Notes: generated by a model not told the origin, from the sequence alone. A stretch of 64,000 nt of DNA from a virus (IMGVR_UViG_3300033182_000538:64001-128000), one strand, 5' to 3'; positions 33,780 through 49,295 are shown, counted from the stretch's first letter. Translations and numbers: made by a program.

Positions 33780-34124
33780 TTAAATCCTATTATAATCATC
33801 TTCAATTCGGACAATATCATCCTCACCAAAATATGTTCCTGTTTGAACTTCTATGAACTCAACAACTTCATCAGTTTCATTCCAAGCTCTATGTTTTGCT
33901 CCCAAAGGAATATTTATACTTTCACCATAATCTCTGAATACTTTATCATCATCCAAAACTATTGTAAGTGTTCCTTTTGTAACAATCCAAACTTCTTGTC
34001 GTTTATTGTGATATTGGTATGATAACTTTTGTCCAGGATTTACTGTAATCTTTTTGACCTTACATTCAGTCCAATCATAAAGTACTTCATACTTTCCCCA
34101 CGGTCTATTCTCTATAACTCTCAT
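33780..34124 (-). CDS. Mannose-6-phosphate isomerase type II cupin domain
   Basis: RPWGKY, LSYQYHNKRQEVW, KHRA, EVQTGTYFGEDDIVR. Confidence 0.92.
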   Translation of the reverse strand: MRVIENRPWGKYEVLYDWTECKVKKITVNPGQKLSYQYHNKRQEVWIVTKGTLTIVLDDDKVFRDYGESINIPLGAKHRAWNETDEVVEFIEVQTGTYFGEDDIVRIEDDYNRI

Positions 34125-36022: not shown

Positions 36023-36430
36023 TTACTTAGCCCACTTCTTTCTTTGGACTATCTGAGATATGATTCCGTATACACTTAAATCTTCGTAAGTGTCTTGGAT
36101 ATTTTCACCAACCTCATCTGGTTCACCTAATACAACTAATTGTTTTAGTCTCTGAATTTTGTCGTTCTTTCTAAACCATAGTCCCACTAATGATAGTTTA
36201 ATATCATCATCAGATTCTAAGTTAGTTCCGACTGAGATGTTACCAGGTCCGTAGTTTCTTTGTTTTTTACAAAAGGTTTCGTACATCTCATCTAAAATCT
36301 TTTTAAACTCTTTTGTAGTCTCAGGGTACAATCTTTCACAATACTCTATTGCGTTTTCTTCTTGCTTATCCTTTTCAACCCTCTCAGAATAATTCACCTT
36401 GTTTTTTCTTTCTTTTATTACTTCAACCAT
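36023..36430 (-). CDS. DUF1599 / nucleotide modification associated domain 1 (MazG-like helical)
   Basis: KKQRNYG, DKIQRL, ENIQDTYEDLSVYGII. Confidence 0.8.
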   Translation of the reverse strand: MVEVIKERKNKVNYSERVEKDKQEENAIEYCERLYPETTKEFKKILDEMYETFCKKQRNYGPGNISVGTNLESDDDIKLSLVGLWFRKNDKIQRLKQLVVLGEPDEVGENIQDTYEDLSVYGIISQIVQRKKWAK

Positions 36431-36858
36431 TTTTTGATTTCTTTTTTATCAACACCAAATTTTTGAATGATTTCCATCACCTCATCTTTGGATAATATTT
36501 CAAGGTAATCCTTGACTTCTCTCTGAGATACTTCAAAATATTTTGATAGGTAACTCAGTACTTTCTCATTGTATTTATCACTACCCTTTGCTTTGATGTA
36601 TTTATCAAAACTTCGTTTCTTAGGTAGAACATCTAAATACAATTTGTAAACATCCCTTGGATTGAGCTGACCAATGGTGTACTTTTGTAACTCATTGACC
36701 AACTCTAATAGTCCCATATTCATAGATAAAAATCTATTGACCATAAATGGTTCAAAGGTTTTTCTATCCATAACCGAAAGAGACTCCCAAGAGGTTTTCT
36801 TCTCCTTTATGCCAGAAAGATGCTGAAATAGTGTTTTAGCTTTCTTCGTTTCCGACAT
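36418..36858 (-). CDS. Clamp loader small subunit (T4 gp62-like)
   Basis: FEPFMVNRFLSM, LPKKRSFDKYIK, YFEVSQRE; adjacent to the large subunit. Confidence 0.75.
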   Translation of the reverse strand: MSETKKAKTLFQHLSGIKEKKTSWESLSVMDRKTFEPFMVNRFLSMNMGLLELVNELQKYTIGQLNPRDVYKLYLDVLPKKRSFDKYIKAKGSDKYNEKVLSYLSKYFEVSQREVKDYLEILSKDEVMEIIQKFGVDKKEIKKWLK

Positions 36859-37114
36859 CTTCGATTAATTCTTTTGGAGTAAATTTAGGGTGTACAGTTC
36901 CACAATTGTTACAAATCACAACTGGAATAGGTAACATAGATGGTTGTCCGTTCGGCGATTGTACAGCCGATACCTCTTTGTACATTGTTAACTCATCGAA
37001 GAAAATACCATCACATTGTGGACAAGTTACATTTTTTAACTTACGAACATCCAAGTTCATAGTTGGGGACTTTGCGTGTTGTCCCATTTCTACAATTTTA
37101 CCTTTTTTAGCCAT
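36836..37114 (-). CDS. Zinc-ribbon protein
   Basis: CPQC and CNNC; between the clamp loader subunits. Confidence 0.7.
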   Translation of the reverse strand: MAKKGKIVEMGQHAKSPTMNLDVRKLKNVTCPQCDGIFFDELTMYKEVSAVQSPNGQPSMLPIPVVICNNCGTVHPKFTPKELIEDVGNEES

Positions 37115-38037
37115 TACTTATTAATTCCCATTAAAATGTTTAACATCATCGCCATTACGTTGATTTCTTTATCAACTACCATAGAATCTTTGTACTGACC
37201 ATCTGCGATGTTTAAGATAGTCTGACCCACTTTACCACTTGCGTAATTATCTACCTCATCATAAAGAGCCCTATATAAAGGAGTAAAGTCCTTTACCTTA
37301 GAGTCAGCGATGATTTGTCTGATTTCAGTAAATTGTTGTTTTATATCACCAGTTTCTTTGAGAATGTTTATAACATTTTCAGTATAGTTCGCTTGAACAG
37401 TGGATGTAGCATCAATCTTTAATGTACCATTTACCACTTGTCGCTGTGCAGCATTTAATACTCTACGAATATCAGGATAACCACTATTGACAAGAACGGC
37501 AAGGTCTTCTTTATTGAACTCAACACCCTCTTCATTTAAGATATCAAACAATCGCTTTGCCACTTCTTTTTTAGATGGTGGTGTAATAGCGAATGTCTGA
37601 CATCTACTTTGGATTGGGTCAATCACTTTTTCGACATAGTTACAAGTCAAAATGAAACGAGTAGATTTACTGAAAGTTTCCATTAGATTACGAAGTGCAG
37701 CTTGAGCGTTTGGTGTCAAGTAGTCTGCCTCATCCAAGATTACAACTTTCCACTTACGGAATCCCATAGATGATGCGAATCCACGAATCTTATCACGAAC
37801 TGCATCTACGGAGTTTTCATCCGAAGCGTTGATGTACATAACATCACAATCAATCTGATTGGTAATGATTTTAGCGAGGGTAGTCTTACCTGTACCTGCT
37901 ACTCCGTAGAGTAACAAGTGAGGTACATCCTCATTCTCAATGTAAATCTTTACTTTCTCAAGGATATGTTCGTTTCCAACATAACCTTCTAAACTATTCG
38001 GGCGGTAGCGTTCCACCCAGAGACTATTATTACTCAT
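37114..38037 (-). CDS. Clamp loader ATPase (T4 gp44/RFC small subunit)
   Basis: LWVERYRP, GVAGTGKTT, INASDE, LDEAD, QSRC. Confidence 0.95.
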   Translation of the reverse strand: MSNNSLWVERYRPNSLEGYVGNEHILEKVKIYIENEDVPHLLLYGVAGTGKTTLAKIITNQIDCDVMYINASDENSVDAVRDKIRGFASSMGFRKWKVVILDEADYLTPNAQAALRNLMETFSKSTRFILTCNYVEKVIDPIQSRCQTFAITPPSKKEVAKRLFDILNEEGVEFNKEDLAVLVNSGYPDIRRVLNAAQRQVVNGTLKIDATSTVQANYTENVINILKETGDIKQQFTEIRQIIADSKVKDFTPLYRALYDEVDNYASGKVGQTILNIADGQYKDSMVVDKEINVMAMMLNILMGINK

Positions 38038-39224
38038 CGACCTACTTCTTTTAAGTATTTCTTTTTACAATCTTCCCAAGACATTCCAATGATATCTAAG
38101 TAAAACAATGGTTCTGGCTTAATACGACCTTCATCATAGAGTTTTGTATATCTACGAATAGCTTTAGGTTTCCACCAATTCATTGTGTATTCATCACCAT
38201 CAACAAACTTTTTCTTCATATTTAACTGATTATCATCAATTTCATTACGAAGAAACTCATTCCCATTATCATACATCTGAGCGAAGTATACACCTCTTTT
38301 GAATCCGTGTTGATACTGAGATTGTTTGATTCCCAACTCTTTGAAAATCATAGTTAGAATACGTTGTTTTACACCTGATACAGGCCCTTCGATACCTTCT
38401 TTCTGAGTAGTATTCTTTGTATACTCTTCAGATTTATGTTCTTTCAACCATTGGTGCCACACATCGTAATATGTGTCATCTGGTTTAATTGATACCTTTC
38501 CTGCTGACTCACCCAATGTCTTAAAGTGTGGGATACCATTATATTGAGAGTGGATACCATACAAAGATGTGGTGCCTACTGCGATAAGGGTCTGACCATA
38601 TTTTTCTTTCCAATAATCTCTAACTATTGGGCTGGTCGTTAAACAGGCGACTAACTTACCACCTAAGAAATTGTATCCTAAAGGTTGTGTACATACAATG
38701 GTGGTAGCGATAGTAGTGTGATTTAATTTACCATCTTTGAATTTGTTGTCTTTTGACCAACCAATGTAGGTATCTCGAACTCCCAATGAGGTAACATCAG
38801 AACCCAACGAAACTAATCCTAATAACTTACCACTAACTCGGTCTTTGATGTATAACTTTACGTTACGACCTGGATTAGCTACGAAAGACATCGTGTGAAT
38901 CAGTTTACGGATTTCAGTCCAACGAGTGGATTCCTTTGAATCCTTAACAATCTCAACATATGGTTCAAGGGTCTCAATCTCTTGGATTGTTTGTTCTTTG
39001 TTCATAATGTCAGTTGGAGCCCACAATTGGTCAATATATTGAGCCATTGCGGCTTTCCTCTTCATAGAGTTGGATAAGTCTGAATTCCACTCATCCCACT
39101 TCTTGTAAAGAGTTTGTTCCTCTACAGTCATAGATTGAAGATAGTCCATATTCTCAATGAACTTCTTCTTCTCGTTATCGTAGTTGAACTCTGGCTTCGC
39201 TGGTTCTGTGTCCCAAAATTGCAT
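38034..39224 (-). CDS. DUF4338 (DruA-like) protein, probable GNAT/Mom-related fold
   Basis: NPGRNVKLYIKDRVSGKLLG, PLGYNFLGGKLVA, TTSLYG..SQYN. Confidence 0.7.
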   Translation of the reverse strand: MQFWDTEPAKPEFNYDNEKKKFIENMDYLQSMTVEEQTLYKKWDEWNSDLSNSMKRKAAMAQYIDQLWAPTDIMNKEQTIQEIETLEPYVEIVKDSKESTRWTEIRKLIHTMSFVANPGRNVKLYIKDRVSGKLLGLVSLGSDVTSLGVRDTYIGWSKDNKFKDGKLNHTTIATTIVCTQPLGYNFLGGKLVACLTTSPIVRDYWKEKYGQTLIAVGTTSLYGIHSQYNGIPHFKTLGESAGKVSIKPDDTYYDVWHQWLKEHKSEEYTKNTTQKEGIEGPVSGVKQRILTMIFKELGIKQSQYQHGFKRGVYFAQMYDNGNEFLRNEIDDNQLNMKKKFVDGDEYTMNWWKPKAIRRYTKLYDEGRIKPEPLFYLDIIGMSWEDCKKKYLKEVGR

Positions 39225-39225
39225 A

Positions 39226-39921
39226 TTACTTAATTTCTACTAAATAATAATTTGATTTAAATCCATCGTGCTCAAACGAAACGTGAGCAAGTCCTTGAGG
39301 AGAAATCTTCAATGAAGATGATTTAGCACCTCTATTAGCATTTAGAATTTCTTTCAAATACTTAGCTGAGAAAGAAATAGGTTCAACATCACCCTCACAA
39401 GTACAATCAACATTGATAGAGATTCTATTTGAGTTGATTTTAGAATAACCCAAGATTACCTCACCTTTGTTTTCTTTACAAGTGAATGTAAATGTATCTG
39501 AATCAGACATAGCACCCTTTGCTTTTGTAAACGTAGATACAAAGTCATCATCCATTGTGATTGTAGATGTAAAAGGAGGAAGTTGTTTCAACTCAGGTAC
39601 AACTGGAATCACCGATAAATCAGCCAACATATAGTTTACTGATGTTTTAGTGTCCGAGAAAACCAAAGCTGCGTCACCTTCGTTTACATCAACTTGACTA
39701 CCCAATACACCGAGTAGACCTTTTAGTTGAGATGTGGTGTAAACACCATACTCACCATTTGGAAATTCCTTCTCCTCAGATGATACACTACCCAAAAGAG
39801 TTTTGTCATCCGAAATAAAAGATACTTCCATTCCTTCATCGGTTGAGTTGATTTTTACACTCTCAACCTCACCACCCAAGTTATATCGGGCGATAAATCC
39901 TTCAAACGAACTTTTTTTCAT
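39226..39921 (-). CDS. Sliding clamp (T4 gp45/PCNA-like)
   Basis: 231 aa, acidic, beta-rich, ISFSAKYLKEIL, ends YYLVEIK; lies between PolB and clamp loader. Confidence 0.7.
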   Translation of the reverse strand: MKKSSFEGFIARYNLGGEVESVKINSTDEGMEVSFISDDKTLLGSVSSEEKEFPNGEYGVYTTSQLKGLLGVLGSQVDVNEGDAALVFSDTKTSVNYMLADLSVIPVVPELKQLPPFTSTITMDDDFVSTFTKAKGAMSDSDTFTFTCKENKGEVILGYSKINSNRISINVDCTCEGDVEPISFSAKYLKEILNANRGAKSSSLKISPQGLAHVSFEHDGFKSNYYLVEIK

Positions 39922-39943
39922 ACTTTTTATTGTTTAATGTTAG

Positions 39944-39977
39944 ACTAATATACGAAATTTATTTTTAATATCCAAAT
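39944..39977 (-). promoter_or_regulatory. Bacteroidota-type -33/-7 promoter
   Basis: Sense TTTGgatattaaaaataaatttcgTATATTAG. Confidence 0.75.
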
Positions 39978-42496
39978 TAAAATGAGAAAAATTGTGATGC
40001 AGCTGCAAGGTTCGGATTTGGTTTCTCCCAATCCATAGCTTTGTAGAAGTCATCAAGTTTATTATTCAACTCTTTTTCCCAAATCAAATCATAATCAATG
40101 TATTGTTGGATAAACTCATTTATTTGTGGTGGGTCTGAGTGACCCGTAAACGCTGTGGTCTGAAGACCAAGCGGGTTCTTCTTCAAATATACCCATTTAA
40201 TCTTGTCACCATCTTTCATTGGTTCATACTTGTAAGGTGCGTTAAACTTCTTCAACAATTGGTTGTAAGTAATAGCCGCCTTAACGTGAGCAGGCGTTCC
40301 CTTCTTGAATTCACCCAATGCTTGATTCTTAAATAGATACTTTGACATATCCTTTACCGCTGAGTTCTTTGCGATGTCTACAAAGTTTTGACTGGTCATT
40401 CCATCTTTATAATCCAAAATCTTTTGGTCAATCTCATCTTTGTTAGTAGACTTTAGAATGTCCATCAAAACCGTTGACATCACTTCCTTGAAGTATGTTG
40501 GGAATGAACTTCGTTTTACATCAAGTCCCTTCACATCCAACTTATCACAAGGTACAGTATTGTCATTAATAATCCATTGTGCGTATCTCTTCTTTGATAC
40601 CCAAAAACCACCCTTTGCGATAGTCTCTTGTTTGATATCAAATCGGTGAGTATCCACATTGAACATCTTATATGCCATTACATCATATACTTTGTTGATA
40701 TGTGTTTCTACTTCTTTTGCAACTGATAGAATCGCTGGAATCATTTCTTCATCCGAATCTTCGTTGATGTTTGGATTACGAGACTTTACCAATGGTGCAG
40801 CTTGATAGAATACTGAATCAGTATCAGTATATACATTGTAATCTGCTTCCTTACCAATGTTCTTTGTATAGTATTGGTTAGCAATCATCTCAGTAGTCTT
40901 AATCACCGACTGACCTGTAATGGTAGTTGCTTCCGCATTATCCACATCGTAGAATCTGAATGATGGTAGACCCAATACACCATAAAGGGAGTTCAACATA
41001 ATCTTTTGAACCAATTGTCTCTGAGAGTAGAACTTGTAGAGTTCATCATTACCTTCTTTACCATACTTCTTCATAAGGTCTTTGTACTCCACACGTTTGT
41101 CAAACCAAACATTAAGAATCTCAGGAATCACACCAACTTTGTCTCTACGATAAAGTACACCATTTGCTGCGATTGAGTAATCATTCTTCTGAACAAACTC
41201 TAAGAATCGGTCTTTAGGTAGTGGTGGGAACTCATTACCATCATCATCTACAATTGAGTATGATTCAATCTTACCCTTCATATGGTCTTCAGATGAATAG
41301 TTCTTCAATTTACCAATCTTGGTCTCTGGCGAGATATTGATTGTCATAATGATAGATGGATATAGTGATGTCAAATCCAAATCGTATACCCACTTGTAAA
41401 GACCAGGTTTTGGTTCTTTTACATAAGCACCCGTAAACTTACCTTCACCATCAGACCCATCAGCATTACGATTCATTCTCTTTGGTTTATTAGGAGCTAC
41501 CCTACCACTCCTTCTCAAGAATGTCAAGATAGCACCCTCTAACCACTTTGATGAGAATAAAAAGTCTTCATAGAAAACGTGACCAGCGTGACAAATCGCC
41601 TGAGCCAATTGAATGAACTGAAGTTTCTTGTCCATATCAACAACCAACTCCACATCCACCAAGTTATACTCAATGAACTTTTCCAAGTCATCTCTGAATA
41701 GTTGGTCAAGGTTTCCTTCATACTCAATCTTACCACGACCCAATGTCATATTAGCAATAGTGTCTAATCGGTAGTTTGGGAATTCTTGGTAGGTAAAGTT
41801 CTTGAACAACGCAAGATAATCCAAACACGAAATACCAGCGATGATATATCTATTACGATACTTGTTCCAACTAACCTTTCCAATAGGAGACAATTCGTTT
41901 GCTTTTCGTTCACCAAAAAGAACCTTAATACGATTGTATAGGTAGGTAACATCAAAGTAGTCAATGTTCCAACCAGTCACAATAGTAGGATTGATTTCTT
42001 TCCATTTGTTGATGAAAGCAATCACCATTTCCTCTTCAGTATCAAACGACTCTACTTGAGCTCCCTTGATAGTTTTGTTGATTTTCTCACCTTTGTTTAC
42101 TACATAGACAAAGTAATCGCCAGTTACGGAATCGTGACCAGCGACTGATGTCATTGCGTTCTGAGCTTCATTAATATCAGGTAAACCACTATTCATCTCT
42201 ACCTCAATATCAAATGTCAAAATAGTATGACCTTTAGAGATTTCATCTGAATCACCATACTCATCAATCAGAAAACGAGTTACTTCATTTACATCACTTT
42301 CGTATAGCTCCAAGTCATCTTCTTGTTTCCAAAAGTTTATCTTTTTAAGACGCTCTCCGTGAATAGAAGTATGAGCACCATTACCATCTCTAACGTAACC
42401 ATATCTACGGTACTTAGATGTGAAGTAACCTTTTTCATCATCCCAACAATGGATGATAGATTTTTCTTTTTCATAGTATACGTTTTGATATGCCAT
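39977..42496 (-). CDS. DNA polymerase family B (T4 gp43-like)
   Basis: Exo FDIEVE, GWNIDYFD, YNLVD; pol DLTSLYPSII, KIMLNSLYG, YTDTDS, KKRY. Confidence 0.98.
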   Translation of the reverse strand: MAYQNVYYEKEKSIIHCWDDEKGYFTSKYRRYGYVRDGNGAHTSIHGERLKKINFWKQEDDLELYESDVNEVTRFLIDEYGDSDEISKGHTILTFDIEVEMNSGLPDINEAQNAMTSVAGHDSVTGDYFVYVVNKGEKINKTIKGAQVESFDTEEEMVIAFINKWKEINPTIVTGWNIDYFDVTYLYNRIKVLFGERKANELSPIGKVSWNKYRNRYIIAGISCLDYLALFKNFTYQEFPNYRLDTIANMTLGRGKIEYEGNLDQLFRDDLEKFIEYNLVDVELVVDMDKKLQFIQLAQAICHAGHVFYEDFLFSSKWLEGAILTFLRRSGRVAPNKPKRMNRNADGSDGEGKFTGAYVKEPKPGLYKWVYDLDLTSLYPSIIMTINISPETKIGKLKNYSSEDHMKGKIESYSIVDDDGNEFPPLPKDRFLEFVQKNDYSIAANGVLYRRDKVGVIPEILNVWFDKRVEYKDLMKKYGKEGNDELYKFYSQRQLVQKIMLNSLYGVLGLPSFRFYDVDNAEATTITGQSVIKTTEMIANQYYTKNIGKEADYNVYTDTDSVFYQAAPLVKSRNPNINEDSDEEMIPAILSVAKEVETHINKVYDVMAYKMFNVDTHRFDIKQETIAKGGFWVSKKRYAQWIINDNTVPCDKLDVKGLDVKRSSFPTYFKEVMSTVLMDILKSTNKDEIDQKILDYKDGMTSQNFVDIAKNSAVKDMSKYLFKNQALGEFKKGTPAHVKAAITYNQLLKKFNAPYKYEPMKDGDKIKWVYLKKNPLGLQTTAFTGHSDPPQINEFIQQYIDYDLIWEKELNNKLDDFYKAMDWEKPNPNLAAASQFFSF

Positions 42497-43629
42497 TAAC
42501 CTTGTAACCTTTTATGTAATTCTTTAATCATTATATCTTCATTCAAAGATAGTTCCACAGCCCTTACGACTGACATACTGTCTCGTTCTTGTCTGAATGT
42601 GTCATCATCCAACAATTTATCAAGATAATCAAATAAGTCTTTTTTATACTTGAAGAACATTCCGTTTGGGTCAATCTCGTGATAACAATCAGATTCATTC
42701 CAAATCATAGGACACCCGTTCATCATACAATCCGTACCACTTACTGACCACCCATAGTTAGTTTGTCTCATTTGGATACCTACCAAACAATCTTGCAATC
42801 TCTTGTAGTAATCGTGTTTAGGTACTTTTGTATTATCAATCCAAGAATATGGTGGGTCACCTTTTAGTTGTGGAATCCACACCTTGAAATCTTCTCGTTG
42901 TTTACGATACTCTTTCATCAGTTCAATAAACTTTGGATATCCCTTGTATGCAGCTGCACGATGGTTAAATACGATTACTCTATCTTTAGAGTCTTTGATA
43001 CCATCAACAATCTTGTCTTTAGGTAATCCTAAGTTCCATACTTTTAGAATTCCATCCAACTTCTGAACAAACTCTTCGTTGAATAGTTCTCTTGCTTCAT
43101 TCAATACTCTATTCTTTTGGTCTTGAGTATTAAGATAACATACATCCATTTGAGATACACCAAGTAGTTCAATAGGTAACCACAACCACTTAGGTTTACC
43201 AGCTCTATTGTCCGGCCCATTACACGATTTCATTTCCCACCAATGACAATAACCCACAATCTTAGTGTCCATTGTTTTTTTGTATCTACCCACTTGAACC
43301 CAATCTGGTAGGTGTGAATAGATTACATCGTAATCAATGTCTTTGAGTAGATTGATAAGTTTAGATGATGGGAATGACCTCTGATTCATCATATCACCAG
43401 GAATGTCAATTTGGTGTTGTTTGACATTTGGTAGATTCAACTTCTTACTGATTTTGCCAGTGGGCATTAGGATATTCCAATAGTAATCGCCATAAGAGTC
43501 CAATGCTTTGATGTGGTTATGAATCACATCAACAAATGAATCTTTATCAATGTTGGAAGAATTCGTTATGTTTGGTATAACGAGTACCTTCCTTGCTTTA
43601 CTATAATCTATTGCTTCCCAAAACTGCAT
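42496..43629 (-). CDS. GT-B glycosyltransferase, candidate DNA-base glycosyltransferase
   Basis: VIYSHLPD, VFNHRAAAYKGY, GWSVSGTDCMMNGCP; translationally coupled to PolB (TAATG). Confidence 0.7.
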   Translation of the reverse strand: MQFWEAIDYSKARKVLVIPNITNSSNIDKDSFVDVIHNHIKALDSYGDYYWNILMPTGKISKKLNLPNVKQHQIDIPGDMMNQRSFPSSKLINLLKDIDYDVIYSHLPDWVQVGRYKKTMDTKIVGYCHWWEMKSCNGPDNRAGKPKWLWLPIELLGVSQMDVCYLNTQDQKNRVLNEARELFNEEFVQKLDGILKVWNLGLPKDKIVDGIKDSKDRVIVFNHRAAAYKGYPKFIELMKEYRKQREDFKVWIPQLKGDPPYSWIDNTKVPKHDYYKRLQDCLVGIQMRQTNYGWSVSGTDCMMNGCPMIWNESDCYHEIDPNGMFFKYKKDLFDYLDKLLDDDTFRQERDSMSVVRAVELSLNEDIMIKELHKRLQG

Positions 43630-45404
43630 TATACAAATAAGTTTTTATGAGCAGTATTAACCTTAGATTCTACATTGTAATAATCGGTGATTAATTCATC
43701 TTTTTTATATAATCTAACTCTACCCAAACTTCTATCAATACCAATCCCATACTTTGGTTTCTCATAGTGATTCTTACTATTCACAAAGTTGAATTTAGTA
43801 TAAGGGCCTATTTTTCGTTGATTATATTCGTATGTAGAAAACGATGCGTATTTAGTAGCTGAGTGATTATTAGGTACTCGCTGTCCATTTTGAATGTTTG
43901 GTTTAATGTATTTTTTCCAAGCATCACTAATTGTTTTTATTATTAAATCATCAGATTCAACGCCCACTAACGCATCTTCAACATTAAATGATGTAATTGA
44001 ATTTTCATATAATTCAATTGCGGATGAGAATGATGGTTCATCATAAACATCATCATCGTAAGCAGAGTATAAAGAAATACCCAATTCTTTAGCTATATCT
44101 AAATAATAATCAGTATTTAATTGAAAGTCTTTTGGATTTTCTAATATATCAATTCCCAATTGAGCTGTTGGTTTATCAAATGAAACAAACATATTTTGAA
44201 ATAAATCCTCATAAGTTTTATTAAACTCACCCATATCATCAACATACCTACATAATCTACCTAATAAACCTTGTAGTAAAGATGTAACTACCTTTGATGA
44301 TTCAACAATACCCTTTATGAATGGTTTGTTTTGATGATATAGATTAGTCAATTCTCCATATGTTTGAACAGGGAATAACTCTTTATCAACTAACTTATCC
44401 AAGTTAACACCACATCCCAAAGAACCATCAATAAACAATGCAACATCTTTTCCATTTAATTTTGAATATTCAAATGTTCTTTTGATTATTTCGGTTAAAG
44501 TTCTTTCAGATTTATCAACTGTATCCAATCCTATCAACTCCAAACCTTCGTTATATGCTTCAGAGTTAAGTTCAACTTTGTTTGAAGTTTCACCCATACA
44601 TATAACAGATGGTATACCCCAATCTGATAACATACGCAATGCAGCTTCCATTATTTCTCTTGGCTTTAATCTAATAATATAGACACCAAATCTATCTACT
44701 TCAGTAGTATTACTATGTTGAGCCAATCTTTGCATTATATACGATACATTATTTTTATCATACTGAATAAAGTAGGTCACTCCATCATCAACATTTTTTA
44801 ACAAATGAGGAACGCCTCTATAATGTTCATTTGGTTCTATTTTATGATAAATGATATCACTACCACGAGATGCATCTAACATAGAAATATTAGTTGCACC
44901 AACTGCTCCAAATGTACAACCAATATCTCTTAGCTCCTTAGCCAAATTTACATATCTACTTTTAGCTTGGGGTGTAGTTCCAAACTGGTCCTCATCAAAG
45001 AATACCAAATCTTGAGGCGTTAAATTTTTTATGAATTCATCTTGCTTATGTGGTTTGAAGAAGTGTAGTAATCGCTGAAATCTATAATCAACGGAACTCA
45101 TTTGGGTTACTGCTCTATTCAAACCATCAACGTGAGCAGTAGATGTATATGATGTAGTTATATATGATTTTGATTTTGGGTCTCTATCTAACCACAAAGA
45201 AGCAACACCAATCATAATTTGAGTTTTACCACTCTGCATTGGTGCAGATATTGTAAAGTAAGGAAGTTCAGACTTATACGCAGGGTCAGTTATCTTTTTG
45301 AAGATAGATTGAGCTTCATCAATCTCATCGGGTTTTGGTGGATTAATTGGATTGGTTTTCCAAGTTTCAAATAAGCTTTTTGAATTTTCTTTTTTTAATC
45401 TCAT
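43629..45404 (-). CDS. SF2 helicase/ATPase-like protein
   Basis: Walker A APMQSGKT, Walker B FFDEDQ, motif III GAT, GCGVNL, QGLLGRLCRY. Confidence 0.7.
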   Translation of the reverse strand: MRLKKENSKSLFETWKTNPINPPKPDEIDEAQSIFKKITDPAYKSELPYFTISAPMQSGKTQIMIGVASLWLDRDPKSKSYITTSYTSTAHVDGLNRAVTQMSSVDYRFQRLLHFFKPHKQDEFIKNLTPQDLVFFDEDQFGTTPQAKSRYVNLAKELRDIGCTFGAVGATNISMLDASRGSDIIYHKIEPNEHYRGVPHLLKNVDDGVTYFIQYDKNNVSYIMQRLAQHSNTTEVDRFGVYIIRLKPREIMEAALRMLSDWGIPSVICMGETSNKVELNSEAYNEGLELIGLDTVDKSERTLTEIIKRTFEYSKLNGKDVALFIDGSLGCGVNLDKLVDKELFPVQTYGELTNLYHQNKPFIKGIVESSKVVTSLLQGLLGRLCRYVDDMGEFNKTYEDLFQNMFVSFDKPTAQLGIDILENPKDFQLNTDYYLDIAKELGISLYSAYDDDVYDEPSFSSAIELYENSITSFNVEDALVGVESDDLIIKTISDAWKKYIKPNIQNGQRVPNNHSATKYASFSTYEYNQRKIGPYTKFNFVNSKNHYEKPKYGIGIDRSLGRVRLYKKDELITDYYNVESKVNTAHKNLFV

Positions 45405-45429
45405 TGATATGTTTTAGATTTTAATGTTT

Positions 45430-45465
45430 TACAAACATACGAATAATTTTTTAATTATCCAAATA
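45430..45465 (-). promoter_or_regulatory. Bacteroidota-type -33/-7 promoter
   Basis: Sense TTTGgataattaaaaaattattcgTATGTTTG, a full TAnnTTTG match. Confidence 0.8.
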
Positions 45466-45468
45466 TTT

Positions 45469-46260
45469 TTACCAAAAACTTACTTGATTTTCTGGCTCGT
45501 AAGTTTCGTGTCTTTCAATCGGTGGTAAGAACTCTTCTGCGTTCTTAGGATACGGACTCGTTTTGTGTTTGAGTCGTTTAGTTAGTTGCCGCTTTTCAGA
45601 TTTGTTCTGACCTAATACTTGAATGTATCGGTGTTTAGGAGCTTCTCTCTTTCTCCAAAACTCTTTGTACCCATCTTTACCAATCTCGGTTTTGAGATGT
45701 TCTACGTTGTGACTACCCCACTTTGAAAATACAGTTCTTGAGTGAATCCACTTATGTGGGTTTTCTAAGGATACTGAATAGTTAGGCATTAGTTGAATAT
45801 CACGACAATCTTGATATAACCAATTCGTTGCTTGATAGATACCACCTAAATGTAATTGTTCAGGGTCAGCGTAACTCAACAACATTTTTATGTTTGGTGC
45901 GTTTTCACGAATCCATTTAAATGATTGACCCATAGCGTATGATTCAATATTTGACCCATAACCATCGTGGATGAACAATCGTGTCAATTCCAAACATTGG
46001 TCTTTTTCTAATCCATCAATTACTGAAGTGATTGCTGACCTTCCTACTGGATATCCATAAACTAAACATCCGATTAATTTTTCATCATTTCCAAGAATGT
46101 CTATTTCATCTGATTTATAGAAGATACCAAGAGCATATCTACACATAGTCCAAGCGTGGGAGTAGTGATGGGTTACAATCATCTCCTTAGCAATAGGTTT
46201 ATTTATTTCACGAATCGTTACTCGTGATGTGTCAACATATGTCTTATTTGCTTCTTTCAA
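45469..46260 (-). CDS. Mom-like DNA modification protein (GNAT fold), copy 2
   Basis: HHYSH, LIGCLVYGYP, LELTRLF, NIES, LSYADP, GGIYQATNW, KHRY. Confidence 0.85.
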   Translation of the reverse strand: MKEANKTYVDTSRVTIREINKPIAKEMIVTHHYSHAWTMCRYALGIFYKSDEIDILGNDEKLIGCLVYGYPVGRSAITSVIDGLEKDQCLELTRLFIHDGYGSNIESYAMGQSFKWIRENAPNIKMLLSYADPEQLHLGGIYQATNWLYQDCRDIQLMPNYSVSLENPHKWIHSRTVFSKWGSHNVEHLKTEIGKDGYKEFWRKREAPKHRYIQVLGQNKSEKRQLTKRLKHKTSPYPKNAEEFLPPIERHETYEPENQVSFW

Positions 46261-46999
46261 TCGGTTCTAATTTATAAATCTCTTCCTCAAATAATTCACT
46301 TTTCTTCGGATAGGGTAAAGATGGGTACTTGAGTGTTTTCAATATACGACTTTTTTTTGACTTATCCAAAATATAAACGTATCTATGTTTCCGTGGTTCT
46401 TTTTTAATCCAAAATGGTTTATTTATCATCTCTTGGATTTTTTTTGGGTTGTTTGTCCCAAATTTTACGAATGAAGTCCGACTATGATGCCACTCATCAT
46501 CTTCAGACCACTTGAAAGACCAAGAATCGTTAGGTCTTACTTTGTTTCCTTGATATATCCAATTTGTTGACTGATATACAGTCCCCAAGTGACCAACCTT
46601 TGGGTCTGAGTAGGATATCAATGCTCTAATGTGTTTTGCGTGTTCTCGTAACCACTTGAATGTTTGTCCAACGAACCAGCTTTCTATATTACACCCATAC
46701 CCATCAAATACGAATAATCGTGTAAGTTCTAATACTTCGGTTCGTTCAAGAAGTGGTGATATGGACTGACCAGAGTGTCTACCTATGGGGTCACCATATG
46801 TAGCTACTCCAATCAACTTGTCCGTGGATTCAAAGAATTGGTGAGAGTCATCTTGTATATACAATCCAAGTGCGTAAGATACCTTTGTCCAAATCCCACT
46901 ATAATGGTTGTTTACCACTATATCTTTTGCGACTGATTTGGAAATAGGTCTTACTGATAACTTAGAAATGTCAGTATATACCTTCCCTTCAATTTTCAT
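46244..46999 (-). CDS. Mom-like DNA modification protein (GNAT fold), copy 1
   Basis: NHYSG, LIGVATYGDP, LELTRLF, NIES, ISYSDP..GHLGTVYQSTNW, KHRY. Confidence 0.85.
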   Translation of the reverse strand: MKIEGKVYTDISKLSVRPISKSVAKDIVVNNHYSGIWTKVSYALGLYIQDDSHQFFESTDKLIGVATYGDPIGRHSGQSISPLLERTEVLELTRLFVFDGYGCNIESWFVGQTFKWLREHAKHIRALISYSDPKVGHLGTVYQSTNWIYQGNKVRPNDSWSFKWSEDDEWHHSRTSFVKFGTNNPKKIQEMINKPFWIKKEPRKHRYVYILDKSKKSRILKTLKYPSLPYPKKSELFEEEIYKLEPIERSK

Positions 47000-47214
47000 T
47001 GATAATCGTTAAATTCACCAAATAATATATGAGTCCAAGTTTCACCTTTCACAATCTTACGAATGTTGGCGGGTGATACACCATTGTTTCGGGCCAATAC
47101 TCTAATGTTTCGGTGTCCCACAGCCCATAGTTTACGAATAGACCTTACTTGTTTTTCCGTTAATTTATGTTGTGGATGTGATTCGCCTCTTAATGCCATT
47201 TTGTATCTTTTCAT
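46996..47214 (-). CDS. Stand-alone HTH DNA-binding protein (HNH homing endonuclease C-terminal type)
   Basis: GESHPQHKLTEKQVRSIR...LARNNGVSPANIRKIVKGETW. Confidence 0.75.
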   Translation of the reverse strand: MKRYKMALRGESHPQHKLTEKQVRSIRKLWAVGHRNIRVLARNNGVSPANIRKIVKGETWTHILFGEFNDYQ

Positions 47215-47621
47215 TCAAAGGGTATTTCTAATTGACCACCATCAGTCAAAAATTGTCCAATATTAGGTTTAGAAAAGTTAGGCCCCTTTAATACCTTACC
47301 ATCTTCACGATAGATAGGTTTACCATCTTCTCCTAATTTAGACATATTAGAACGATGTACCTCATCAAACACTTGTTCAATGATATTGCTCATTCCGTGA
47401 GCAACCATAGTACCCAAAAGGATATATAATTGGTCAGCAAGTGCATCGGTAACCTCAACAAGGTCATCGTTATTACAAGCATCTAAATACTCAACCAATT
47501 CCTCTTTACCCAACCGATATCTCAAGTAATAATCATCTGGCTCAAGTAATGTTGGTTTTGAGTTTCTTGTTTGGTTATAAGCTTTCTGAAAATCCCAAAG
47601 TTGTTGTAACTGCTTTTCCAT
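47211..47621 (-). CDS. MazG-like nucleoside triphosphate pyrophosphohydrolase
   Basis: KEELVEY...EVTDALADQLY, EVHRSNMSK, DGKVLKG. Confidence 0.9.
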   Translation of the reverse strand: MEKQLQQLWDFQKAYNQTRNSKPTLLEPDDYYLRYRLGKEELVEYLDACNNDDLVEVTDALADQLYILLGTMVAHGMSNIIEQVFDEVHRSNMSKLGEDGKPIYREDGKVLKGPNFSKPNIGQFLTDGGQLEIPFE

Positions 47622-47646: not shown

Positions 47647-48204
47647 TTAATTTTCCAAAATCATTTCATTGTTTTTTAAACCACTTGGTTCAGTATCCCA
47701 AAGGTTTATAGCTATTGCGTATCTTGTACCACGAGTAACTTTAGTAACTCGGTGTGGATACTCACCCGCTGGAAATATTACGAGTCTATTATATTTTGCT
47801 TCTATACGTTCTGGCTCATTATCTTGACCTTTAGAGAATATTTCTAAATACCCACCATCGATGTCGTGGTTTCTTGGGTAATATACCGTACCAATTACAG
47901 GAGTAACCAAAGTTCTTTCAGTATCCCACAAATATTCATCTTTGTCAAAGTGCATCTTTAATTCATCCCTTTCATCTTCTTGGGAATATACACCTGTCCA
48001 ATATTCAAATCCAACACAATTTATTGGAACGTGTGGTGACCTTTCACCCCAAATGTATTCTATAAGTTCTTTTTTCAAAGTGTTTGCTGGAGAGTTCCAC
48101 CACCCATACCACCAAAAGTAACCTTTGGTTTCAAAAAAAGTCTCATCACGTTCTAATCTATTTAAAAACTCTTGGTCTTTTATAAAATCATCTATTACTA
48201 TCAT
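47647..48204 (-). CDS. 2OG-Fe(II) oxygenase (prolyl hydroxylase-like)
   Basis: MHFDKDE (HxD), GGYLEI, HRVTKV..GTRYA. Confidence 0.85.
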   Translation of the reverse strand: MIVIDDFIKDQEFLNRLERDETFFETKGYFWWYGWWNSPANTLKKELIEYIWGERSPHVPINCVGFEYWTGVYSQEDERDELKMHFDKDEYLWDTERTLVTPVIGTVYYPRNHDIDGGYLEIFSKGQDNEPERIEAKYNRLVIFPAGEYPHRVTKVTRGTRYAIAINLWDTEPSGLKNNEMILEN

Positions 48205-49295
48205 AATGTCTTCACTTTCTTTAATGCCGAAGCTATAACTTGATGCATATCGTAATATTTGTATTCAGCCAATCTACCACCAAAAATCACATTTGGTGTA
48301 TCATCAGCCATTTGTTTGTATTTACGATATTTCTCATTATTTACCTCATCATTCAAAGGATAAAACGGCTCTACCCCTCTTTTGTAATTCTGAGGATATT
48401 CATAACTTATATATGTACCTTTTTGATTTTGATTATCAAAATGTTTGTGTTCTATTCTTCGAGTTTGTAGTGATGTTGAATCCGTAAAATTCATACCAGC
48501 ACATCCTTGTAAATTATCTACATCTTCAAAGTAGAAGTTTTCCCATCTAACGGACTTATATTCCAAATCACCATATTTGTAATCAAAATACTTGTCGATT
48601 GGGCCTGTATAAATTACTTTATCGGTGAGGTCATCCCAATACTCTTTATTTTCCAAATAATCACAATCGGTATAAACTTTAACATCTTTCAACAACTTTT
48701 CAAATATCTGAGTGTATCCTCCGATTGGTATTCCTTGATATTTGTCAAAGTAATAGTTGTTATCCCAAGTAAACCTTACAGGTAATCGTTTTATGATTGA
48801 CTTTGGTAGGTCTTTCGGGTCTTTTTTCCATTGTTTGATTGTATAATGTTTTATCAACTTTTCATAGATGTCCGTACCAACAAGTGAAAGAGCTTGCTCT
48901 TCAAGATTTGTAGGATTTCCTTTGAATCGTTGTGATTCAATCTTTTGCTTTGCTTGTTCTGGTGTCTTTACACCCCACATTTGATTGAATGTAAACATAG
49001 TAAATGGTAAAGAATACAACTCACCATTATAATTAGCTATTGGATTATATCTAAAACTATTGAATTCAGCAAAATGATTAATCCAATCCCAAATACGCTT
49101 ATCATTCGTATGAAATATATGTGGGCCGTACTGATGAACGTGAATTCCACCAACATCTTCAGTATATGTATTTCCTCCAATATGATTACGCTTTTCCAAA
49201 ACAAGAACTTTCTTACCTTTCTTGTTTAACTCGTAAGCACATATAGAACCGAAAAATCCAGCCCCAACGATTATGTAATCGTATTTATCACTCAT
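48201..49295 (-). CDS. glf: UDP-galactopyranose mutase
   Basis: VGAGFFG, HIGGN, HQYGPHIFHT, YQGIP, GRLAEYKYYDM. Confidence 0.97.
   Translation of the reverse strand: MSDKYDYIIVGAGFFGSICAYELNKKGKKVLVLEKRNHIGGNTYTEDVGGIHVHQYGPHIFHTNDKRIWDWINHFAEFNSFRYNPIANYNGELYSLPFTMFTFNQMWGVKTPEQAKQKIESQRFKGNPTNLEEQALSLVGTDIYEKLIKHYTIKQWKKDPKDLPKSIIKRLPVRFTWDNNYYFDKYQGIPIGGYTQIFEKLLKDVKVYTDCDYLENKEYWDDLTDKVIYTGPIDKYFDYKYGDLEYKSVRWENFYFEDVDNLQGCAGMNFTDSTSLQTRRIEHKHFDNQNQKGTYISYEYPQNYKRGVEPFYPLNDEVNNEKYRKYKQMADDTPNVIFGGRLAEYKYYDMHQVIASALKKVKTL

What the first reader, a model, noticed from the sequence alone, without database searches (positions are those of the whole stretch)
36023..47621. Candidate replisome-embedded DNA hypermodification system (2x Mom + DUF4338 + GT-B + NTP-PPase + DUF1599)
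Seen: between and around PolB, clamp and clamp loader, mostly with overlapping or abutting start/stop codons, lie a MazG-like NTP-PPase (47211), an HTH (46996), two tandem Mom-like paralogs (46244, 45469), an SF2 ATPase (43629), a GT-B coupled to PolB by TAATG (42496), a DUF4338 protein wedged between clamp and loader (38034) and DUF1599 (36023). Known: phage Mu Mom is a GNAT-fold adenine modifier, T-even DNA glucosyltransferases are GT-B, and DUF1599 and MazG-type enzymes co-occur with base-modification loci. Inference: up to three acyltransferase-like enzymes plus a glycosyltransferase install a multi-step base modification. I know of no characterised pathway with this combination. This GT lies apart from the main glycan cluster, which favours a DNA substrate.
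Basis: partly seen in the sequence, partly recalled or inferred. Interest (0 to 1): 0.85.

Follow-up and report, generated by a model that had tools for sequence, protein, structure and literature searches.

The report
Mom, DruA and glycosyltransferase genes in phage replisome
An uncultured marine T4-like phage and its many relatives keep two Mom-type adenine-modifying enzymes, a DruA-family acyltransferase-fold protein and a phage-only glycosyltransferase among their DNA polymerase, clamp and clamp-loader genes, which most likely make one or two still unknown DNA modifications.

Summary
All the genes lie at the stated coordinates on the minus strand and are mostly start/stop-coupled. Both TAATG junctions are there.

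- **Mom paralogs:** both are firm Mom-family members (Pfam 1e-46 and 1e-48; PDB 8bv8). They keep R111, S124, D149 and Y159 but not R151.
- **DUF4338 protein:** it is a DruA-family member. Its model is a GNAT fold, and Mu Mom is its top solved match.
- **377-aa protein:** a GT-B, GT4-like glycosyltransferase from a small family almost restricted to phages.

The main result concerns linkage:
- Mom1, Mom2 and DruA are constant in about 35 long relatives.
- The site between Mom2 and PolB is a hypervariable slot. It is empty, or it holds this GT family plus unrelated cargo.
- The 591-aa ATPase is such cargo.
- In far more distant T4-like lineages, DruA and the GT are adjacent in 75 of 81 loci. Twelve of these are compact Mom-DruA-GT-Mom-Mom cassettes.

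So DruA and the GT look like a functional pair that is repeatedly joined to Mom genes and the replisome. MazG and the weak DUF1599 are not shown to take part. The chemistry and the substrate are inferred, not shown. This scan found the same system earlier in other genomes.

The parts
46996..47214 (-). 72-aa HTH protein, ATGA-coupled to Mom1. Possible regulator or DNA-binding accessory of the Mom genes.
   Evidence: It matches only the C-terminal DNA-binding parts of HNH-endonuclease and HTH PHROGs, E 2e-5 to 3e-4. It is conserved directly upstream of Mom1 in relatives at 55-92% identity.
46244..46999 (-). Mom1, a Mom-family GNAT (251 aa).
   Evidence: PF25680, E 2.5e-46; phrog_1384, 1e-51; PDB 8bv8 Mu Mom, E 2.7e-11. 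R111, S124, D149 and Y159 equivalents are kept, and R151 is K. Orthologues are 68-83% identical in relatives.
45469..46260 (-). Mom2, a second, anciently diverged Mom paralogue (263 aa, TTG start). It has a C-terminal extension ending in an invariant FW.
   Evidence: PF25680, E 1.5e-48; 8bv8, E 1.2e-9; 44% identical to Mom1. R151 is E. Orthologues are 58-87% identical, and all end in [SN]FW after a variable linker.
43629..45404 (-). 591-aa P-loop (Walker A/DEDQ) protein. It is accessory cargo of the hypervariable slot, not a core part.
   Evidence: Motifs are visible, but no family hit was found. There are only 11 homologues in 5.8e9 proteins. It is absent from all 80 IMG/VR relatives, which carry unrelated proteins at this position. 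A DNA contig skips it at 43611->45469.
42496..43629 (-). GT-B (GT4-like) glycosyltransferase, TAATG-coupled to PolB.
   Evidence: AF2 model pLDDT 91.2. Foldseek top hits are GlgM, BshA and MshA, E 1e-11, TM 0.66-0.72. The family is small, 154 clusters, and is nearly absent from prokaryote genomes. Whenever the slot is occupied it lies immediately upstream of PolB, 26 of 26.
39977..42496 (-). Family B DNA polymerase (gp43-like), ending in FFSF.
   Evidence: PF00136, E 6.6e-43, and PF03104, 3.5e-20. The C-terminal FFxF is conserved in orthologues.
39226..39921 (-). Sliding clamp (gp45-like).
   Evidence: phrog_223, DNA polymerase processivity factor, E 3e-10. It is syntenic with the clamp of relatives.
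38034..39224 (-). DruA-family (DUF4338) protein with a GNAT-fold core (about residues 81-342), wedged between clamp and clamp loader.
37114..38037 (-). Clamp-loader large subunit (gp44-like AAA+).
   Evidence: PF00004, PF13177 and PF21328 Gp44_lid.
36418..36858 (-). Clamp-loader small subunit (gp62-like).
   Evidence: phrog_225, clamp loader of DNA polymerase, E 2e-19. Relatives carry PF16790 Phage_clamp_A at this position.
47211..47621 (-). MazG/PRA-PH-type NTP pyrophosphohydrolase. It is a neighbour of uncertain relation to the system.
   Evidence: PF01503, E 1.1e-14; phrog_671, 1.4e-37. It is present upstream of the HTH gene in only part of the relatives.
36023..36430 (-). 135-aa DUF1599/Nmad1-like protein (weak assignment). 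It is a neighbour of uncertain relation.
   Evidence: PF07659, E 1.1e-3, 19.7 bits, below the cut-off of 25. 19 of 19 orthologues hit the same family, best E 2.8e-5. It was not detected in L016, L017 or L067.

Best explanation
This is the replication gene block of an uncultured marine T4-like myovirus. Two kinds of modification genes have been built into it.

**(1) Two old Mom paralogues, preceded by a small HTH protein.**
- By homology to Mu Mom they take an aminoacyl group from a charged tRNA and put it on N6 of adenine in double-stranded phage DNA after replication.
- The two paralogues work either as a heterodimer or as enzymes with different sequence or donor specificity.

**(2) A DruA-family GNAT-fold enzyme and a phage-only GT-B glycosyltransferase that work as a pair.**
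- The DruA enzyme performs a first group transfer, and the GT adds a sugar to its product where the GT is present.
- The substrate is most likely also phage DNA.
- The GT sits in a recombination hotspot between Mom2 and PolB. It is swapped between two subtypes or lost there, as expected for a decoration under pressure from host nucleases.

**Not core parts:** the 591-aa ATPase is unrelated cargo of that hotspot, and MazG and the DUF1599-like gene are neighbours.

**Shown:** family memberships, folds, catalytic residues of the Mom paralogues, and the linkage patterns.

**Inferred:** the donor and acceptor of every enzyme, that DruA and the GT act in sequence, and that they act on DNA.
For: **Mom paralogues**
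- Pfam and PDB homology, with R111/S124/D149/Y159 conserved even in divergent paralogues.
- The mechanism of Mu Mom is taken from PMC13219725.
- Each of Mom1 and Mom2 has its own orthologues in relatives, so the duplication is old and both copies are kept.

**DruA-like protein**
- PF14236 and the PADLOC DruA model.
- GNAT fold with Mu Mom as the top solved match.
- DUF4338 is called a GNAT domain in PMC10853773.

**GT**
- Confident GT-B model, closest to retaining GT4 enzymes.
- A conserved HR...YKG donor-loop-like motif and other near-invariant residues.

**DruA-GT pairing**
- In a distant T4-like group (gp44 33-37% and PolB 31-33% identical to ours), DruA lies directly upstream of the GT in 75 of 81 loci, mostly with 1-nt overlap, between gp44 and gp62.
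- Twelve of these loci are contiguous Mom-DruA-GT-Mom-Mom cassettes.
- GT-DruA adjacency is also seen in a phage with a different genome layout, next to the terminase; in L252; and in 3 of 6 MAG contigs.
- In L049 a second DruA gene sits just upstream of the GT.

**Nested distribution**
- DruA occurs alone in 80 of 80 Mosig-type loci and in cyanophages.
- The GT is absent from 7 relatives that keep DruA and both Mom genes.
- The GT is almost never seen without DruA nearby.

**Selection**
- The GT (69-85%) and DruA (63-88%) are as conserved as PolB (53-90%) or more so within the clade.

**Inserted status**
- The closest cultured relative by PolB, Microcystis phage Mel-JY01, has PolB-clamp-loader without Mom, GT or DruA.
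Against: - No result shows modified bases. All public runs that hold the stretch are kept as contigs, which cannot show base modification.
- R151, which is essential in Mu Mom, is K in Mom1 and E in Mom2.
- The genome encodes an ordinary thymidylate synthase and no ThyX. No hydroxylated-pyrimidine acceptor for a DNA glycosyltransferase is evident, and the Mu-type Mom product has no hydroxyl.
- The structural neighbours of the GT are small-molecule and lipid glycosyltransferases. A phage DNA arabinosyltransferase (9iqz) ranks only 14th, within the same range.
- At least one locus (L270) has the GT with no DruA within 6 kb.
- All lineages examined are T4-like phages, so part of the linkage could be inherited gene order.
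Confidence: 0.55

Rival explanations
1. DruA and the GT work as a pair but not on DNA. They modify a protein (for example a replisome or virion protein), a nucleotide, a tRNA or a small metabolite. Only the Mom paralogues modify DNA.
For: - The nearest solved structures of the GT are MshA, BshA, GlgM and PimA-type enzymes with small-molecule or lipid acceptors.
- DruA matches ordinary small-molecule and protein GNATs almost as well as Mom.
- No hydroxylated base precursor pathway was found.
- DruA occurs alone in Mom-less pelagiphages and cyanophages.
Against: - The pair is repeatedly fused into one overlapping gene run with up to three Mom genes.
- It always sits among clamp, clamp-loader and polymerase genes, although its exact position differs between lineages.
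- The GT switches subtype or is lost between close relatives, which is the pattern of anti-restriction DNA decorations.
- The phage keeps its many other glycosyltransferases elsewhere (notes 4 and 6; not tested by me).
Confidence: 0.25
2. One reading: all the named genes (MazG, HTH, two Mom, ATPase, GT, DUF4338, DUF1599) form one multi-step pathway that builds a single complex base.
For: - The genes are co-oriented and mostly start/stop-coupled.
- The compact Mom-DruA-GT-Mom-Mom cassettes show that the three enzyme types can form one operon.
- Pfam labels DUF1599 as nucleotide-modification associated.
Against: - The parts separate freely. The slot is empty with Mom and DruA kept, and DruA occurs alone.
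- The ATPase has 11 homologues and is replaced by unrelated proteins elsewhere.
- MazG is missing next to the locus in many relatives, and DUF1599 is missing in some.
- Mu Mom needs no helper enzyme (PMC13219725).
Confidence: 0.12
3. The linkage is inherited gene order only. These are unrelated accessory genes that happen to sit in the replication block of one phage lineage, with no functional tie to each other or to replication.
For: - T4-like phages keep long syntenic core blocks with many unrelated small insertions, for example the 2OG-Fe(II) oxygenases scattered through the Mosig and HTVC008M replication genes.
- The promoter and terminator scans give nothing beyond chance.
Against: - DruA-GT adjacency survives rearrangement. 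DruA and the GT lie apart (clamp/loader and upstream of PolB) in this clade, together between clamp and loader in L252, together between gp44 and gp62 in the distant group, and beside the terminase in another phage.
- The closest cultured relative lacks all of them.
Confidence: 0.06
4. The phage DruA homologue is a decoy or inhibitor of host Druantia defence rather than an enzyme.
For: DruA is a component of type I Druantia, and phages sometimes carry homologues of defence proteins (PADLOC hit; Phold paper).
Against: - It is very strongly conserved (63-95% across hundreds of clusters), with many invariant polar residues and a motif-A-like QPLGYNFLGGK loop.
- It is tightly paired with a glycosyltransferase.
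- It is present in phages of very different hosts.
- Decoys usually evolve fast.
Confidence: 0.02

Closest known systems
Bacteriophage Mu Mom (PF25680; PDB 8bv8), a Gly-tRNA(Gly)-dependent GNAT that makes N6-carbamoylmethyl-adenine in dsDNA (PMC13219725)
   Same: - Mom1 and Mom2 are family members over the full length.
- They keep the R111, S124, D149 and Y159 equivalents.
- Like Mu mom, the gene is preceded by a small overlapping gene.
   Different: - There are two to four diverged paralogues per genome instead of one.
- R151 (essential in Mu) and the dimer residue W48 are not kept.
- Mom2 has a 25-aa tail ending in an invariant FW.
- The genes sit in the early/replication block next to PolB, not at the end of a late operon.
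- They are joined to DruA and GT genes.
- The small upstream gene is an HTH protein, not the Com zinc finger.
DruA (DUF4338, PF14236) of type I Druantia anti-phage defence
   Same: Clear family membership by Pfam and PADLOC models. The domain is a GNAT fold, as already stated for DUF4338 in PMC10853773.
   Different: - No other Druantia gene is nearby; the neighbours are the clamp and the clamp loader.
- It is encoded by a phage.
- It is paired with a glycosyltransferase in several lineages.
- The function of DruA itself is unknown, so nothing can be transferred from it.
T-even phage DNA glucosyltransferases (AGT, BGT) and the phage HY126/RB69-type 5-hydroxycytosine arabinosyltransferases (PDB 9iqz; PMC13326640)
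   Same: - GT-B fold.
- Phage-encoded.
- Variable between close relatives.
- 9iqz is among the structural matches (rank 14).
   Different: - No sequence similarity.
- No dCMP hydroxymethylase or hydroxylase-type thymidylate synthase homologue was found; the only ThyA scores as a normal thymidylate synthase.
- The conserved partner is a GNAT-fold enzyme rather than a base-hydroxylating one.
DruA-like 'putative cytoplasmic protein' of T4-like cyanophages and pelagiphages (Kyanoviridae; noted in the Phold preprint 10.1101/2025.08.05.668817)
   Same: Homologous to the window's DruA-like protein: 35% identity to Pelagibacter phage Mosig and 27-30% to Synechococcus phages.
   Different: In those phages it stands alone, without a GT or Mom gene within 6 kb, and several kb away from the clamp genes.

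Membership tests
Mom family (PF25680) | Full-length match to the family profile above the curated cut-off | tested here: met
   158.4 and 165.6 bits against a cut-off of 27.1. phrog_1384, E 1e-51 and 8e-48.
Mom family (PF25680) | Homology to the solved Mu Mom structure, with catalytic R111, S124, D149 and Y159 | tested here: met
   8bv8, E 2.7e-11 and 1.2e-9. The aligned residues are R, S, D and Y in both proteins. They are invariant or nearly so in 14 paralogues.
Mom family (PF25680) | R151, essential in Mu Mom (R151A is inactive) | tested here: not met
   The aligned residue is K in Mom1 and E in Mom2, and it varies in orthologues. This is a sequence alignment only, so a shifted or compensating residue is not excluded.
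Mom family (PF25680) | Aminoacyl-tRNA-dependent modification of N6-adenine in dsDNA | not testable with these tools
   It needs biochemistry or nucleoside mass spectrometry. The public runs are contigs only.
DruA / DUF4338 (PF14236) | Match to the family profile above the curated cut-off | tested here: met
   80.5 bits against a cut-off of 27. PADLOC PDLC00002, E 1.5e-25.
Type I Druantia defence system | DruA together with DruB-DruE (large helicase) in one locus | tested here: not met
   The flanking genes are the sliding clamp and the gp44-type clamp loader. No PADLOC hit was found for the other region proteins tested.
GNAT superfamily (for the DruA-like protein) | GNAT fold | tested here: met
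GNAT superfamily (for the DruA-like protein) | Specific sequence relation to Mom beyond the shared fold | tested here: not met
   hhalign of DruA against Mom alignments gives E 0.56 and 0.15. BLASTP gives E 0.46.
GT-B glycosyltransferases, GT4-like | Two-Rossmann-domain GT-B fold | tested here: met
   The model has pLDDT 91.2 and pTM 0.89. Foldseek E is 1e-11 to 1e-9 with TM 0.63-0.72 to GlgM, BshA, MshA and PglA.
GT-B glycosyltransferases, GT4-like | Match to Pfam Glyco_transf_4 / Glycos_transf_1 above the cut-off | tested here: not met
   23.1 and 16 bits against cut-offs of 28.5 and 26.4. Only 5-8 of 45 family members hit at E <= 1e-3. The family is a distant offshoot.
Phage DNA glycosyltransferase systems (T4 hmC-glucose, RB69 5hoC-arabinose) | A thymidylate-synthase-like enzyme that makes the hydroxylated pyrimidine acceptor | tested here: inconclusive
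   The single ThyA homologue scores as thymidylate synthase by NCBIfam equivalogs (323 bits against a cut-off of 108), and there is no ThyX. The record is only 87% complete, and active-site residues were not inspected.
MazG / PRA-PH NTP pyrophosphohydrolases (PF01503) | Match above the curated cut-off | tested here: met
   55.1 bits against a cut-off of 21.3. phrog_671, E 1.4e-37.
DUF1599 / Nmad1 (PF07659) | Match above the curated cut-off | tested here: inconclusive
   19.7 bits against a cut-off of 25, covering only the second half of the profile. All 19 orthologues hit at E <= 0.01, best 2.8e-5.
SF2 (ResIII/DEAD-like) ATPases, for the 591-aa protein | Helicase-core profile match with motifs I and II | tested here: inconclusive
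   Walker A and DEDQ motifs are seen in the sequence. No Pfam, PHROG, NCBIfam or PDB-sequence match was found. Language-model neighbours are viral clusters, of which some members (18-35%) carry ResIII.

The most novel reading that the evidence does not exclude
DruA-family GNATs are DNA-base acyl or aminoacyl transferases, working like Mom. In these phages the DruA product carries a group that the dedicated GT-B then glycosylates. Together with multi-paralogue Mom modification of adenine, this gives a previously unknown glycosylated, amino-acid-derived purine hypermodification installed at the replication fork. The same chemistry would then explain what DruA does in bacterial Druantia defence.
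Probability: 0.25. Interest if true: 0.9.

Novelty: new variant of a known kind. Interest (0 to 1): 0.72.

Why it matters
- **Mom chemistry.** It was solved only recently, and only for the single enzyme of phage Mu. An abundant group of ocean phages keeps two to four diverged Mom paralogues, which offers natural variants for asking how donor and sequence specificity are set.
- **DruA.** It is a defence-system protein of unknown function. A phage version locked to a dedicated glycosyltransferase and to Mom genes gives a concrete, testable lead on its biochemistry.
- **A possible new pathway.** If the DruA-GT pair acts on DNA, this would be a new route to glycosylated DNA that does not start from a hydroxylated pyrimidine.
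- **Practical consequence.** DNA of this abundant phage group may resist restriction enzymes and be read poorly by some sequencing methods.

Tried and rejected
- **Clamp docking of the Mom2 tail.** I folded the clamp trimer with Mom2 residues 222-263. The score was 0.11 against a mark of 0.32, so there is no verdict and it counts neither way. The conserved terminal FW (Mom2), FFxF (PolB) and LF (ATPase) remain a sequence observation only.
- **Sequence link between DruA and Mom.** BLASTP and two profile-profile comparisons found nothing significant.
- **Close relatives among cultured phages.**
  - megablast of the region found none.
  - tblastn of the GT and of the ATPase against 50,697 phage records found no match.
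- **The ATPase.**
  - The search for related loci with the single protein found nothing.
  - A profile search against PDB sequences found nothing real.
- **Homology among slot cargo proteins.** The 595-610, 597, 393-450, 506, 583 and 657 aa proteins show none with each other or with the ATPase, and they have no P-loops. I therefore dropped the idea of a conserved 'GT plus NTPase' cassette.
- **Promoter and terminator scans.** Counts were at or below the shuffled expectation.
- **Direct evidence of base modification or transcription from public reads.**
  - All holders are contigs.
  - RNA-library contigs do lie on the DruA, clamp, PolB, GT, ATPase, Mom and MazG genes, but such libraries can contain DNA. 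This is only a weak hint of expression.
- **Literature searches.** Searches for Mom with DruA/DUF4338, for DruA biochemistry and for DUF1599 gave no description of this gene combination.
- **Search of 185,579 prokaryote genomes with alignment A2.** It failed for lack of conserved columns. The repeat with A10 gave six MAG contigs only.

Full report
**Where the window lies.** The window is bases 64001-128000 of a 166,988-bp IMG/VR virus record, estimated 87% complete. G+C is about 34%, and every gene in the region is on the minus strand. By its genes it is a T4-like myovirus. It has a family B polymerase, a gp45-like clamp, gp44- and gp62-like clamp-loader subunits and a PD-(D/E)XK nuclease. In relatives gp32, UvsX, a DnaB-type helicase and ribonucleotide reductase lie just upstream. 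The closest cultured phage by PolB is Microcystis phage Mel-JY01 at 48% identity, followed by Synechococcus myoviruses at about 33%.

**Checking the observation.**

Pfam confirms:
- MazG/PRA-PH (E 1.1e-14);
- two Mom-family proteins (E 2.5e-46 and 1.5e-48);
- PolB and the AAA+ clamp loader;
- a DruA/DUF4338 protein (E 1.5e-22).

The weaker assignments are these:
- The GT gets only sub-threshold GT4/GT1 hits.
- The DUF1599 call is sub-threshold (19.7 bits against a cut-off of 25), although all 19 orthologues tested hit the same family.
- The 591-aa protein has a Walker A (PMQSGKT) and a DEDQ box but no family match in any library. Language-model neighbours are viral clusters in which a minority of members carry ResIII.

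The two TAATG junctions (ATPase/GT and GT/PolB) are in the sequence.

**The Mom paralogues.**
- Both align over their full length with the crystal structure sequence of Mu Mom (8bv8; E 2.7e-11 and 1.2e-9). They are 44% identical to each other.
- I used the residue numbering of the 2026 paper on Mu Mom. That paper shows Mom transfers glycine from Gly-tRNA(Gly) to N6 of adenine in dsDNA, followed by an on-base rearrangement, and that R111, S124, D149 and R151 are needed (PMC13219725).
- The equivalents of R111, S124, D149 and Y159 are kept in Mom1, in Mom2 and in all further paralogues I aligned. R151 is K in Mom1 and E in Mom2, and the dimer residue W48 is not kept.
- Mom1 and Mom2 each have their own orthologues in relatives (68-83% and 58-87% identity). 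The duplication is therefore old and both copies are maintained.
- Some relatives have a third or fourth, shorter Mom.
- All Mom2 orthologues carry a tail beyond the PYPK end of Mu Mom that varies in sequence but ends in an invariant FW. PolB orthologues end in FFxF, and the 591-aa protein ends in LF plus one residue.
- This fits the clamp-docking idea noted elsewhere in this scan (e1-5743115), but my complex prediction gave no verdict.

**The DruA-like protein.**
- It matches PF14236 and the PADLOC DruA models.
- I built an alignment of 29 sequences that included Mosig-type pelagiphage relatives at about 35% identity. It gave an AlphaFold2 model with pLDDT 86.6.
- The best Foldseek match in the PDB is Mu Mom (probability 1.0, E 2e-3), followed by GNAT acetyltransferases.
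- The core, about residues 81-342, is therefore a GNAT fold. This agrees with a published remark that DUF4338 is a GNAT domain (PMC10853773).
- There is no detectable sequence relation to Mom.
- Homologues occur in Pelagibacter phages Mosig and HTVC008M and in many Synechococcus myoviruses. There they stand alone, several kb from the clamp genes.

**The glycosyltransferase.**
- A search of 1.84 billion cluster representatives found only 154 related clusters.
- A scan of 185,579 prokaryote genomes found six short MAG contigs. The family is small and essentially phage-borne.
- A model from 45 sequences has pLDDT 91.2 and is a GT-B fold. It is closest to retaining GT4 enzymes (GlgM, BshA, MshA, PglA; E about 1e-11, TM 0.66-0.72). 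The 5-hydroxycytosine arabinosyltransferase of phage HY126 appears at rank 14 within the same range.
- Near-invariant residues include an HR...YKG stretch at the start of the second domain, where GT4 enzymes bind the donor diphosphate. That comparison is my inference from general knowledge of GT4 motifs.
- The genome's only ThyA homologue scores as an ordinary thymidylate synthase, and there is no ThyX. No hydroxylated-pyrimidine acceptor pathway is evident.

**Linkage within the clade.**

I examined about 35 long contigs of the same clade, found through the ATPase, the GT and DruA. Their backbone is constant:

(2OG-Fe oxygenase)-(MazG)-HTH-Mom1-Mom2-[slot]-PolB-(extra Mom)-clamp-DruA-(dUTPase)-gp44-Zn ribbon-gp62-(DUF1599-like)-PD-(D/E)XK.

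The interval between Mom2 and PolB is hypervariable:
- It is 29-35 bp in seven loci and up to 4.9 kb in others.
- When occupied it always holds a member of this GT family directly upstream of PolB (26 of 26). There are two subtypes, only about 29% identical, that alternate between close relatives.
- The GT is preceded by cargo proteins that are unrelated to each other. These include the 591-aa ATPase of this window, proteins of about 600, 400-450, 583 and 657 aa, a GHKL-type ATPase, a GIY-YIG homing endonuclease and, in L049, a second DruA-family protein.
- The ATPase has only 11 homologues among 5.8 billion proteins.
- Metagenome contigs laid on the window show the alternative forms directly. 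One joins 42490 to 45471 (ATPase and GT both missing), and one joins 43611 to 45469 (ATPase missing).

Within the clade the GT, DruA and Mom1 are as conserved as PolB or more so. In L017, for example, the GT is 75%, DruA 66% and PolB 53% identical to ours.

The closest cultured relative, Mel-JY01, has PolB-clamp-loader with none of these genes. They are therefore insertions into an older replisome block.

**Linkage beyond the clade.**

This was the decisive test, because synteny inside one lineage proves little.
- A GT homologue at 43% identity lies next to a DruA gene beside the terminase of a differently organised phage.
- One at 39% lies in the order clamp-DruA-73 aa-GT-...-gp44.
- I then fetched 80 IMG/VR loci of that distant GT type, plus L252 already held, giving 81 loci. 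Their gp44 is 33-37% and their PolB 31-33% identical to ours, which is as far as cyanophages.
- In 75 of the 81, a DruA gene lies directly upstream of the GT, mostly with a one-base overlap, between gp44 and gp62.
- Twelve of them are contiguous, overlapping Mom-DruA-GT-Mom-Mom runs.
- Three of the six exceptions are cut by a contig end. At least one (L270) lacks DruA within 6 kb.
- Mosig-type pelagiphage loci have DruA only (80 of 80).

The distribution is therefore nested:
- DruA can stand alone.
- The GT is almost always with DruA.
- Mom genes join the pair in some lineages and are kept without the GT in others.

**Interpretation.**

The Mom part can be read with fair confidence as adenine modification of phage DNA of the Mu type. 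Which aminoacyl-tRNA is used is open, and so is why two paralogues are kept. Mu Mom is an obligate dimer, so a Mom1-Mom2 heterodimer is one option. Different target motifs or donors is another.

DruA and the GT behave as a two-step unit, with DruA first and the GT as an optional, exchangeable second step. Three patterns make DNA the most likely substrate:
- the pair is repeatedly fused with Mom genes;
- it is always placed among polymerase, clamp and loader genes;
- the GT shows the subtype switching and loss typical of anti-restriction decorations.

This is inference. A protein, nucleotide or small-molecule substrate is not excluded. No acceptor hydroxyl is evident, unless the DruA or Mom product supplies one.

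MazG, the DUF1599-like protein and the ATPase are not supported as parts of the system.

**Novelty.**
- Already published: Mom, DUF4338 as a GNAT domain, and DruA-like genes in cyanophages.
- I found no paper describing multi-paralogue Mom sets joined to a DruA-GT pair inside a phage replisome block.
- Within this scan, the same system has already been noted and followed up in other genomes with similar conclusions (e1-5697811, e1-5660103, e1-5699394). I read those only after my own analysis, apart from the clamp-motif lead.

Noticed in passing
window 45469-45545 (Mom2 C-terminus), 39977-39997 (PolB C-terminus), 43629-43640 (ATPase C-terminus): Several proteins of the block end in aromatic dipeptides that are conserved in orthologues despite variable linkers. 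Mom2 ends ...[SN]FW, PolB ...FFxF, and the ATPase ...LF plus one residue. Some small slot proteins of relatives end in YW or FF.
   Followed up: partly
L016:11421-14980, L067 and L070 (PolB region): In some relatives PolB is hit in two pieces separated by an inserted ORF of about 190 aa. This points to an intein, intron or homing-endonuclease insertion in the polymerase gene.
   Followed up: no
L067:1695-2624: A GIY-YIG/NUMOD3 homing endonuclease lies in the hypervariable slot between Mom2 and PolB. It may help explain why this site is a recombination hotspot.
   Followed up: no
L095:3229-4749: A 506-aa GHKL (HATPase_c_3) ATPase occupies the cargo position upstream of the GT in one relative. 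Together with the P-loop ATPase here, the slot looks like a small defence or counter-defence island.
   Followed up: no
L005:16563-17783: In a close relative (ATPase 92% identical) the DruA gene is read in four frame-shifted pieces and its Mom1 is shortened to 197 aa. This is either assembly error or decay of these genes in that strain.
   Followed up: no
window 47647-48204: A 185-aa 2OG-Fe(II) oxygenase (PF13640) lies just upstream of MazG. It is conserved at that position in most relatives at 55-71% identity. Whether it hydroxylates anything relevant to the GT is unknown.
   Followed up: partly
window 36836-37114: A 92-aa zinc-ribbon protein lies between the gp44-like and gp62-like clamp-loader genes. 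It is conserved there in nearly all relatives.
   Followed up: no
G000:C1:50026-50883 (outside the window): The genome's ThyA homologue scores as a normal thymidylate synthase (NCBIfam equivalog, 323 bits). No ThyX was found.
   Followed up: partly
window 33780-34124 and 48201-50413: Sugar-nucleotide and glycan genes flank the region: a mannose-6-phosphate isomerase-type cupin, UDP-galactopyranose mutase and a GT2-TPR protein. They could supply an unusual sugar donor.
   Followed up: no
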